Assembly (NCBI RefSeq): GCF_035594765.1 | Contig: NC_085846.1 | Location: forward strand, 10,155,190 to 10,219,189 | Length of the DNA stretch: 64,000 nucleotides | Origin: Anolis carolinensis | Lineage: Eukaryota | Direction: 5' to 3' | In this document: piece by piece, positions 54,601 to 56,787 of the stretch | Position numbering within the stretch: position 1 is the first letter of the stretch | How the letters are laid out: every line of letters begins with the position of its first letter | Position numbers: made by a program

Positions 54601-56787
54601 TTCCTGGACTATATTACTTTGGGATTTTCATGAGACATTTGAATTACTGCTGGGTTATCATCTATTGCTAACCATTTTTTGGATTCTACATCCTCTTTCC
54701 TTATTCCTCTTTTTTCATATGTTGTATGTGTTTTTACAGAAAAATTGATTGTTTTTCTTTGGATTCATGTGTGGTGCTGTGGTTATAGGAGTTTCCAGGC
54801 CTGAGGTGCTGCTGGTGTTATCCCATTGCAAATAGGAAGTTTTCAAGAAGAGTCCACCTCAATGTTTTACTGGGGATGAGGTGGGGTAATCACCATCCTT
54901 CTTGCGCACCCTGTGTTTACACTGGCAGAATTGTCTTAGGCCAGGATGAAAGAGGGAAAGTGTCTCTGCCAAAATCGGAATGGGGCACCCAAACAATCAG
55001 GTCAAGCCCTAATATGGGGGGGGGGGGGGTGTTACTAGAATTTTGAACAGTCACAAACAATTTTAATGGAGTTTTTCTAAAAACTAAAAGGAGATGGCTA
55101 CAATTATCAAGTAGATAACAGACTAGCTAATGTGTTCAGTTGAGTGTGTGGGGCAGGCAAAATCATGACAGTATATTTGAAACTGCAATGAAAGCTGTGT
55201 GAATATGCATTTCTGTGTCCAACTGATTCATGTCTACTCAAAAATAAGCCTTAGCTCTAATTAGCTCCTATGATGACTTTTATTTTTGACTTTGGTTGCA
55301 GTTTGCAAAAAGACATTTACAGAAAGGAAAGCTTCAGGAGAAATTCAATAGAAATTCAATAAATCACAAGCTTAAGCATAAAAGAAATTGGCATGATATA
55401 TTTCCGATAGAGGAATATACTATACATTAGCATAATACCAAACCTAATATTGGTCTTACATATACTGATTCTTCAATTCAAACTAAGACTGGGACCCATC
55501 CTTCTGATGAAATTATGAGGATAAAATATAGATCATTACTTTGTACCAGAATATCATCTCTCATCAGGACATTTTATTAACCTTAGGAACCAAATTCTAA
55601 ATAAGAGACAACAGATGATAAATGAATAAACAGAAACTTTCTTTAATGCTTTCTTTTCATTACTTGCTCCTTTGTATTCATATCAGGCCTCAGAATAATG
55701 ATATAGCATTTGGGGAAAAATATAAAACCAAGTAATCCGGCACTGGAAGCTAAGATTGAGAAGATCTCCACGGCCACCATGTATTTCCCCTTGGAGCTCA
55801 AGTATGTTGGCACAAAGGAAATCCACACACTGCAGAAGACCAACATACTGAAGGTGATGAACCTGGCAAAGAAAGCTGACGTGAAACTGCAAATGGACAG
55901 GAAACCCATAAAACCCAAGAGGCAATAAAACATGGTGATTGACCCTTCATTACACTCCAGAATAATTTCTTCAGCCATTGAGTTCACATCAAGATCAGGA
56001 AATGGTGGAAAGGTAGACAGCCACACTGTACAAATGGTGGCTTGAATGAGCAAGCTGGAAAGAACAATGGACGTGGCCATTCTTTTCCCCAACCATTTCC
56101 TCCACTTGGATTCAGGCTTGGTGGCTTGGAAAGCAAGAATCACAGTGATAGTTTTTGCCAACACAGAAGAAATGGCCACTGAGAAGATGATGCCAAAAGC
56201 TGTCTGACGAAGGAGACAGGTCATCTTCTGTGGCTTTCCAATGAACAGCAGAGCACAAAGGAAGGAGAGCAGGAGGGAGAGGAGGAGGGTGTAGGTGAGG
56301 GTCCGATTATTGGCCTTGACAATGGGAGTGTCCCGGTGTTTGAGGAAGATCCCAAGCACCACAACAGTCACACAAAACAGGAAAAGAGCAAAGCTGGCCA
56401 AACCTGTTCCAAATGGGTCTTCAAAACCAAGGAAAATTATATATTTGGGGATGCAGAAATCCCTCTTCTTGTTTGGGTAATGATCTTCTGGACACTGAAA
56501 GCAGTTATCCACATCTAGGGAAAAGGAAACATTGACATACATGTGGCAACCTTACTTAAAGTCAATTGATATAGTCAAAATATTATTTTGAAAGCCTGTA
56601 GTAAAGCTTATGGCATCAACATTTCCACATTCCATGTCCTAGATATGTTAGGTAATTAAATATTTAAAATGCATGCTTTGATAGATAATTGCATCAAACT
56701 ATACCATTGAAGAAGATAAAAGTGAACTTATCTAGATAATTCACTATAGGAATATTCTAAAATAACTAGAAATAGACTAGGAGAAAT

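What the first reader, a model, noticed from the sequence alone, without database searches (positions are those of the whole stretch)
55850..55875. Gene F keeps its frame but has lost the entire [10 protein letters not shown] loop
Seen: a clean 30-nt deletion (equivalent to D 31800-31829) between imperfect repeats cttggc and cctggc. All other F exons and splice sites in view are intact. Established: the PxxFNEAK motif of intracellular loop 3 is among the most conserved in class C GPCRs (mGluR, CaSR, T1R, V2R), contributes to G-protein coupling, and these receptors work as dimers. Inference: F is either a cryptic pseudogene that ORF-based counts would call intact, or a ligand-binding, non-signalling partner or decoy.
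Basis: partly seen in the sequence, partly recalled or inferred. Interest (0 to 1): 0.65.

Follow-up and report, generated by a model that had tools for sequence, protein, structure and literature searches.

The report
Vomeronasal receptor gene missing its G-protein loop
One gene in a tandem array of vomeronasal-type (class C) receptor genes has a clean 30-base in-frame deletion that removes the short intracellular loop these receptors use to engage G proteins, so it is most likely a recently disabled copy that still looks intact to ORF-based gene counts.

Summary
Gene F (minus strand, last exon 55643-56514) lacks exactly 30 nt that are present in the four other 7TM exons in the window. The protein reads [11 protein letters not shown] instead of [21 protein letters not shown]. 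The breakpoints sit at an imperfect direct repeat, GCCAGG/GCCAAG, spaced 30 nt apart. Only 5 of 866 possible 30-nt deletions in that exon have such flanks, which fits slipped-strand deletion.

Exons 2-6 of F and the last 51 nt of exon 1 are open with AG/GT sites. The start codon lies outside the window.

The lost segment aligns to CaSR RKLPENFNEAK. Papers place there the ICL3 phenylalanine needed for G-protein coupling in CaSR and mGluRs.

Nothing here separates "young cryptic pseudogene" from "non-coupling partner subunit". F-lineage omega is about 0.34, like its neighbours. But the frameshifted neighbour E gives about 0.23, so that test has no power. AlphaFold models were too poor to use.

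Best reading: a recent loss-of-coupling allele in a birth-and-death gene family. Reads, population data, expression and orthologues could not be checked. Interest is modest.

The parts
55643..56514 (-). Gene F exon 6 (7TM domain plus stop codon), 872 nt instead of 902
   Evidence: Pfam 7tm_3 242.8 bits against 276.6 for D.
55861..55863 (-). Junction of the 30-nt in-frame deletion (coding strand GCCAGG|TTC; 1-nt ambiguity). It removes [10 protein letters not shown], which is ICL3 plus the first turn of TM6.
   Evidence: gap at exon columns 653-682.
31799..31828 (-). The 30 nt in intact paralogue D that F lacks, bracketed by GCCAGG and GCCAAG
56364..56442 (-). Tract in F exon 6 (exon columns 73-151) that shares its variable sites with gene C rather than with D/E/B. 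Likely gene conversion.
   Evidence: site table; 2 S and 7 N 'F-unique' codon changes that equal C.
57891..58017 (-). F exon 5 (cysteine-rich NCD3G domain), 127 nt, AG/GT, open. Carries E>G at a site invariant in B-E.
   Evidence: Pfam NCD3G 54.3 bits.
58914..59141 (-). F exon 4, 228 nt, AG/GT, open
   Evidence: No Pfam hit on its own.
60786..61631 (-). F exon 3 (main part of the Venus-flytrap domain), 846 nt, AG/GT, open
   Evidence: Pfam ANF_receptor 62.3 bits.
62928..63219 (-). F exon 2, 292 nt, AG/GT, open
   Evidence: Pfam ANF_receptor 25.8 bits.
63950..64000 (-). Last 51 nt of F exon 1 with its inferred GT donor. The rest of exon 1 and the start codon lie outside the window.
   Evidence: The donor was chosen by phase and by conservation in B, D and E.

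Best explanation
F is a type-2 vomeronasal receptor (class C GPCR) paralogue in a head-to-tail array. It suffered a slipped-strand deletion of 30 bp between the imperfect direct repeats GCCAGG and GCCAAG. The deletion removes the whole third intracellular loop and the first turn of TM6, equivalent to human CaSR K796-K805. That segment includes the conserved Phe that packs against the C-terminal helix of G-alpha. If the protein is made, TM5 and TM6 are joined by a single Arg inside an otherwise uninterrupted hydrophobic stretch. I infer that such a subunit cannot activate a G protein itself and may also fold or traffic poorly. F would therefore be a young loss-of-function (or strongly hypomorphic) copy on its way to pseudogenisation, in a family that evolves by birth and death. 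It still passes ORF-based tests of intactness. Shown here: the deletion, its repeats, the open frame, and the alignment of the lost segment to the CaSR ICL3 motif. Taken from papers: the role of ICL3. Inferred: loss of coupling and loss of function in F.
For: F alone of five 7TM exons lacks the 30 nt. The motif is identical in protein in the other four of four, with 1 synonymous difference in 4 x 30 nt. Breakpoints fall at a 5/6 direct repeat, one of 5 such sites among 866 possible 30-nt deletions. The lost residues align to CaSR RKLPENFNEAK (E=1.8e-78). The 7tm_3 score falls by 33.8 bits. The hydropathy trough between TM5 and TM6 (-1.63 in D) is absent in F, where the minimum is 0.58. CaSR F801A is expressed at the surface yet non-functional (PMC5394417; PMC12799464). 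mGlu2 F756S and mGlu4 F781S abolish G-protein activation (PMC5582870). mGlu1 F781 and mGlu5 F768 contact G-alpha, and their Ala mutants impair coupling (PMC13353412). Disabled copies are common locally: neighbour E carries a 1-nt insertion in exon 3, with stops in the shifted phase of exon 4. Only 3 F-unique bases in exon 6 outside the C-like tract mean there has been little time for further damage to accumulate.
Against: No second disabling lesion was found in 786 whole codons of exons 2-6, and all ten splice dinucleotides in view are canonical. F-unique changes are 10 S: 13 N outside the conversion tract. That gives omega of about 0.34 with P=0.012 against neutrality, and it is not different from D+E+B (Fisher P=0.82). 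So F was constrained for most of its separate history. Pairwise dN/dS of F against its paralogues (0.38-0.42 vs D, E and B) equals that among D, E and B (0.40-0.44). CaSR and mGlu dimers carrying one ICL3-dead subunit still signal through the other subunit. ABD-type V2Rs are co-expressed with a family-C V2R in snake and mouse. So loss of ICL3 need not make F useless. No fold evidence: the AlphaFold models of F and of intact D were both poor (pLDDT 42.1 and 43.2).
Confidence: 0.55

Rival explanations
1. F is retained as a ligand-binding but non-coupling subunit. It pairs with a coupling-competent partner (for example the broadly co-expressed family-C V2R) and signals by trans-activation, or it damps the partner as a decoy. 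This would be analogous to GABAB1 or to engineered ICL3-dead CaSR/mGlu subunits.
For: The extracellular exons are open and the F-lineage omega is about 0.34. S170A:F801A CaSR heterodimers recover about 30% of the wild-type response (PMC5394417). mGlu2(F756S)-mGlu4 heterodimers respond like the control (PMC5582870). In corn snake, co-expression was seen only between family C and A/B/D V2Rs (PMC3590772).
Against: All four other paralogues keep the motif unchanged, including C, which is far diverged elsewhere (dS 0.6-1.3). Ordinary subunits of this type therefore appear to need it. The constraint signal has no power: frameshifted E shows omega of about 0.23. A 10-residue loss is far more drastic than the point mutants that were shown to traffic normally. 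No partner gene, expression or binding data are available here.
Confidence: 0.15
2. The deletion is not a fixed feature of the genome. It is an assembly or amplification artefact, or a rare allele of the sequenced individual.
For: The array holds near-identical paralogues, including a run of 104 nt identical in all five exon-6 copies, which is difficult ground for assembly. Slippage between short repeats can also happen in vitro. Neighbour E's lesion is a homopolymer length change, A7 vs A6, a typical error class, so the consensus quality here is unknown.
Against: A clean 30-nt loss bounded by a direct repeat is not a typical consensus error. Flanking sequence is collinear with D and E on both sides. 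No N or gap lies nearby.
Confidence: 0.15
3. The shortened receptor still folds and couples by itself, using ICL2 and the C-terminal tail. The deletion would then be nearly neutral.
For: G-protein contacts in class C receptors also involve ICL1, ICL2 and the C-terminal region (PMC13353412; PMC12799464). The remaining uncharged segments of 27 and 23 residues either side of R217 are each long enough to span a membrane.
Against: Single substitutions of the ICL3 Phe already abolish coupling in CaSR and mGluRs. The segment is invariant in the four other copies.
Confidence: 0.07

Closest known systems
Engineered ICL3-dead class C subunits (CaSR F801A; mGlu2 F756S, mGlu4 F781S)
   Same: They lose the conserved ICL3 phenylalanine. 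The subunit cannot activate G protein but can dimerise, and the dimer can signal through the other subunit (passages).
   Different: Those are point mutants with normal surface expression. F loses ten residues, the entire loop and the start of TM6, so its folding and trafficking are unknown. F is a natural allele.
Human GPRC6A ICL3 polymorphism (KGKY in place of ancestral RKLP)
   Same: A natural indel-type change in the same ICL3 motif of a close class C relative. [quoted passage not shown]
   Different: It replaces four residues and keeps FNEAK and the loop length. Its effect is disputed: one of the listed titles calls it gain-of-function in mice. I did not read these papers beyond the listing.
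GABAB1 subunit of the GABAB heterodimer
   Same: A class C subunit that binds ligand while the partner couples to G protein (recalled from general knowledge, not from a call).
   Different: GABAB1 is an ancient, conserved, obligate partner with its own trafficking control. F is a recent paralogue whose siblings all keep the coupling loop, and no partner is shown.
V2R pseudogenes in birth-and-death chemoreceptor arrays
   Same: A tandem array with disabled copies beside intact ones. Pseudogene transcripts are detectable in the snake VNO (PMC3590772). Neighbour E is frameshifted.
   Different: Classical calls need a stop, a frameshift or a lost splice site. F has none in view. [quoted passage not shown]

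Membership tests
Class C GPCR 7TM domain (Pfam 7tm_3, PF00003) | Profile match above the gathering score over the whole domain | tested here: met
   F exon 6: 242.8 bits (cut-off 33.5), profile positions 3-251 of 251. D: 276.6 bits. Best solved relatives are CaSR chains, E=1.8e-78 for D.
V2R / CaSR-like receptor architecture | Venus-flytrap (ANF_receptor) plus cysteine-rich NCD3G plus 7tm_3, encoded by separate exons in that order | tested here: met
   Searched exon by exon. Exon 2: ANF_receptor 25.8 bits. Exon 3: 62.3 bits. Exon 5: NCD3G 54.3 bits. Exon 6: 7tm_3. Exon 4 gave no hit alone. Exon 1 is mostly outside the window.
Signalling-competent class C subunit | ICL3 motif with the conserved Phe (CaSR F801 equivalent) between TM5 and TM6 | tested here: not met
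   Absent from F; present and identical in protein in B, C, D and E. Aligned to CaSR RKLPENFNEAK.
Classical pseudogene | Premature stop, frameshift or lost splice site | tested here: not met
   Exons 2-6 are open and every acceptor and donor is AG/GT. The 51 nt of exon 1 in view are open. The start codon and signal peptide are not in view.
Seven-helix topology as scored by gene-survey pipelines | Seven predicted TM segments (TMHMM/Phobius, as used in PMC10869828) | not testable with these tools
   Only a Kyte-Doolittle profile could be run. The TM5/TM6 trough is lost in F.
V2R family ABD-type versus family C | Phylogenetic placement with reference V2Rs | not tested
Recent tandem duplication suggests the expanded (non-C) clade, but that is inference only.
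GABAB1-like non-coupling partner subunit | Obligate heterodimer with a coupling partner; conserved under purifying selection after loss of coupling | not testable with these tools
   No orthologues, expression or interaction data. The lineage omega test lacks power.

The most novel reading that the evidence does not exclude
F is a naturally G-protein-uncoupled V2R kept in service as a ligand-binding subunit. It would signal only through the co-expressed family-C V2R, or tune it as a decoy. That would be a spontaneous re-invention of the GABAB1/GABAB2 division of labour inside a chemoreceptor array. It would also imply that the specific V2R subunits do not need their own G-protein interface.
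Probability: 0.1. Interest if true: 0.65.

Novelty: new variant of a known kind. Interest (0 to 1): 0.3.

Why it matters
If F is simply broken, its value is methodological. Repertoire counts that define 'intact' by an open reading frame will overcount functional V2Rs, and a check for the ICL3 motif would be a cheap extra filter. If F is expressed and kept, it would be a natural experiment on which subunit of a V2R dimer talks to the G protein. That question is open because V2Rs are hard to express heterologously (recalled). Either way this is one lesion in one copy of a large, fast-turning-over family, so the finding is of modest interest until reads, expression and orthologues are examined.

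Tried and rejected
1. AlphaFold2 of the F 7TM exon and of intact D, each with the five window paralogues as alignment. Mean pLDDT was 42.1 and 43.2, and the TM5-TM6 region was below 50 in both. The models are too poor to say anything about the hairpin, so no fold search was run on them.

2. Lineage-specific N/S counts as a test of relaxed constraint. Rejected as uninformative because the frameshifted gene E looks as constrained (omega about 0.23) as F (about 0.34).

3. Pairwise dN/dS. The values are the same for all close pairs.

4. Rfam scan of the window: 0 matches. The tandem-repeat scan found only microsatellites and short arrays, none at the junction.

5. Literature search for the motif string 'FNEAK': 2 papers, both irrelevant. 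A search for vomeronasal + 'third intracellular loop' + 'in-frame deletion' found 60 papers holding at least 2 of the 3 terms. Of the 12 listed, none was about a V2R loop deletion. This is not proof that none is in print.

6. Not attempted: complex prediction, because I make no binding claim that a pass would change. Also the protein atlas, and the genome-contig scan, which holds bacteria and archaea only.

Species, orthologues and other copies of this deletion therefore stayed unchecked. Supplementary files of the papers were not seen.

Full report
**What the window is.** The 64-kb window has no N and about 39% G+C. It carries a head-to-tail array of class C GPCR genes, all on the minus strand.

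Five long stop-to-stop frames encode near-identical 7TM domains, at 3705-4652, 17983-18909, 31580-32515, 44020-44955 and 55643-56551. Upstream of each lie frames for a Venus-flytrap domain.

Pfam was run exon by exon on F:
- Exon 2: ANF_receptor, 25.8 bits.
- Exon 3: ANF_receptor, 62.3 bits.
- Exon 5: NCD3G, 54.3 bits.
- Exon 6: 7tm_3, 242.8 bits.

The closest solved structures to D's 7TM exon are calcium-sensing receptors (E=1.8e-78), followed by mGluRs and T1R3. This domain order and the six-exon layout are those of type-2 vomeronasal receptors (V2R/OlfC). The family name rests on this architecture and on my knowledge of the family, not on a named database hit.

I do not take the contig for human, because an array of open V2R genes is not a human feature (recalled). 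The species could not be determined. I made no joined coding sequence or joined protein, and I sent none to any tool.

**The observation.** It is correct. In the alignment of the five 7TM exons, F has one gap of exactly 30 columns and no other indel. Exon 6 is 872 nt in F and 902 nt in B-E.

The protein reads ...[13 protein letters not shown]... in F and ...[23 protein letters not shown]... in the other four. On the + strand the junction is at 55861-55863, inside the reported 55850-55875. The missing bases correspond to D 31799-31828, or equally 31800-31829 because of a 1-nt ambiguity.

In the intact genes the deleted block is bracketed by GCCAGG and GCCAAG, 30 nt apart start to start, and F keeps GCCAGG. 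In D, only 5 of 866 possible 30-nt deletions have a 5/6 or better match of this kind, and the observed one is among them. That is the signature of slipped-strand mispairing. It makes a random consensus error less likely, although slippage can also happen in vitro.

**The rest of F.** I mapped exons by aligning the five gene units:
- Exon 6: 55643-56514.
- Exon 5: 57891-58017.
- Exon 4: 58914-59141.
- Exon 3: 60786-61631.
- Exon 2: 62928-63219.

All are open, all have AG acceptors and GT donors, and their lengths equal those of D. Only the last 51 nt of exon 1 (63950-64000) are in view, and they are open. The start codon, signal peptide and promoter of F are outside the window, so F cannot be called complete.

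F also carries E>G in the cysteine-rich domain, at a site invariant in B-E.

**What was lost.** The ten residues align to RKLPENFNEAK of the calcium-sensing receptor. If the only Phe of that stretch is CaSR F801, as the papers place it in ICL3, the deletion equals CaSR K796-K805.

The passages I read say the following:
[quoted passage not shown] F801A is expressed at the surface but is non-functional up to 45 mM Ca2+ (PMC5394417).
- Mutating the conserved ICL3 Phe to Ser abolishes G-protein activation by mGlu2 and mGlu4 (PMC5582870).
- mGlu1 F781 engages the hydrophobic end of the G-alpha-q C-terminal helix. F781A (mGlu1) and F768A (mGlu5) impair coupling (PMC13353412).

Within the window the motif is identical in protein in four of four other copies. 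This includes gene C, whose synonymous divergence from the others is about 0.8-1.3 in exons 2, 3 and 5.

The deletion costs 33.8 bits of 7tm_3 score. A Kyte-Doolittle profile (9-residue window) has a trough of -1.63 between TM5 and TM6 in D and no trough in F, where the minimum is 0.58. What remains is two uncharged runs of 27 and 23 residues joined by one Arg.

Each run is long enough to cross a membrane. A hairpin is therefore conceivable, with the ends of both helices unwound to make the turn, but this is inference. The two AlphaFold runs, F and the intact control D, were equally poor (pLDDT 42.1 and 43.2). They give no evidence either way.

**Is F decaying?** Pairwise dN/dS of F against D, E and B is 0.38-0.42. 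The pairs among D, E and B give 0.40-0.44.

I counted codon changes unique to one gene among F, D, E and B:
- F: 12 S and 20 N. Of these, 2 S and 7 N lie in a tract of exon 6 where F equals C (see below). That leaves 10 S : 13 N, an omega of about 0.34, with P=0.012 against neutral expectation.
- D: omega about 0.35.
- E: omega about 0.23.
- B: omega about 0.49.
- F is not different from the other three pooled (Fisher P=0.82).

So F was under purifying selection for most of its separate history. This does not rescue F, because E is almost certainly broken. E has an extra A (A7 instead of A6, near 48560) 20 nt before the end of exon 3, and exon 4 read in the shifted phase has stops. Yet E shows the same or stronger 'constraint'.

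The test therefore cannot see recent disablement. In exon 6 outside the C-like tract, F has only 3 bases found in no other copy. The time since that segment last shared ancestry with its neighbours is too short for a second lesion to be expected.

**Gene conversion.** F's exon 6 is a mosaic. At exon columns 73-151 (window 56364-56442) its variable sites agree with gene C. From column 267 onward they agree with D/E/B.

All five copies share a run of 104 identical bases (columns 163-266). Also, dS between C and the others is only 0.30-0.37 in exon 6, against about 0.8-1.3 in exons 2, 3 and 5. The 7TM exon is evidently homogenised across the array. In principle, conversion could either repair F's deletion or spread it.

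**Explanation.** My best reading (confidence 0.55) is a young loss-of-coupling allele. A slippage deletion removed ICL3, and a subunit without it cannot engage G-alpha itself and may also misfold. In a family that turns over by birth and death, that is the first step to a pseudogene. The next gene in the array is already frameshifted.

The main biological rival (0.15) is that F survives as a ligand-binding, non-coupling partner. ICL3-dead CaSR and mGlu subunits still support signalling through the other subunit. In corn snake, co-expression was seen only between family-C and A/B/D V2Rs, as in mouse (PMC3590772; PMC4316634). Against it, every sibling keeps the loop, and a ten-residue loss is much harsher than the point mutants that were tested.

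An artefact or rare allele (0.15) and a tolerated deletion (0.07) cannot be excluded.

**Relation to gene counts.** One large vertebrate survey calls a V2R 'complete' if it has a proper CDS of at least 2100 bp, and 'pseudogene' if a loss-of-function mutation is detected. It then checks for seven helices with Phobius and TMHMM (PMC10869828). F would pass the first criterion if its exon 1 is sound. Whether it passes the second is untested.

**Precedents and novelty.** The nearest natural precedent I found is the human GPRC6A ICL3 polymorphism, KGKY for ancestral RKLP. It is proposed to cause intracellular retention, and this is disputed (search listing only).

I found no paper on a V2R lacking ICL3, but these were narrow searches of an incomplete library. 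The snake transcriptome study reports no large indels in its V2Rs.

I rate this a new variant of a known kind, of modest interest (0.3). The boldest reading still open is a natural GABAB1-like division of labour in a chemoreceptor, at about 0.1 probability.

**What stayed unchecked.** Raw reads, population frequency, expression, species identity, orthologues, other genomic copies with the same deletion, conservation of the motif in T1Rs, TM-topology predictors, and the papers' supplementary files.

Noticed in passing
window 48540-49386 (gene E exon 3), extra base near 48560: Gene E has a run of 7 A where B, C, D and F have 6. Exon 3 is therefore 847 nt, and its last codons and exon 4 are out of frame; exon 4 read in the shifted phase has several stops. 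E is either a frameshifted pseudogene or a homopolymer consensus error.
   Followed up: partly
window 56364-56442 (F exon 6, exon columns 73-151): F shares its variable sites here with the divergent gene C, but elsewhere in the exon with D/E/B. This is a short gene-conversion-like tract changing about 7 residues around the start of TM1.
   Followed up: partly
exon 6 of B-F, e.g. window 56249-56352 in F: 104 consecutive bases are identical in all five 7TM exons. Exon-6 dS between C and the others is 0.30-0.37, against about 0.8-1.3 in exons 2, 3 and 5. The 7TM exon seems to be homogenised across the array while the ligand-binding exons diverge.
   Followed up: partly
window 57913-57915 (F exon 5, codon 35): GAA>GGA (E>G) in the CPEG stretch of the cysteine-rich domain, at a site identical in B, C, D and E. 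This is a second F-private change at a conserved position.
   Followed up: no
   Followed up: no
window 63895-63925 and the homologous sites near 52060-52090 and 39900-39930: A poly-C/G-rich tract just downstream of the exon 1 donor varies in length and composition among B, D, E and F.
   Followed up: no
window 57222-57388 versus 20383-20549 (inverted): A 169-nt stretch, 77.5% identical, in opposite orientation in intron 5 of F and downstream of gene C. Probably an interspersed repeat. It overlaps the long ORF 20219-20587 (+), which is unrelated to the receptors.
   Followed up: no
window 55861-55866: The deletion junction creates CAG|GTTCAT on the coding strand, a weak donor-like string that is absent from the intact copies. 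It lies in the terminal exon, with no evident downstream acceptor, so it is probably irrelevant.
   Followed up: no
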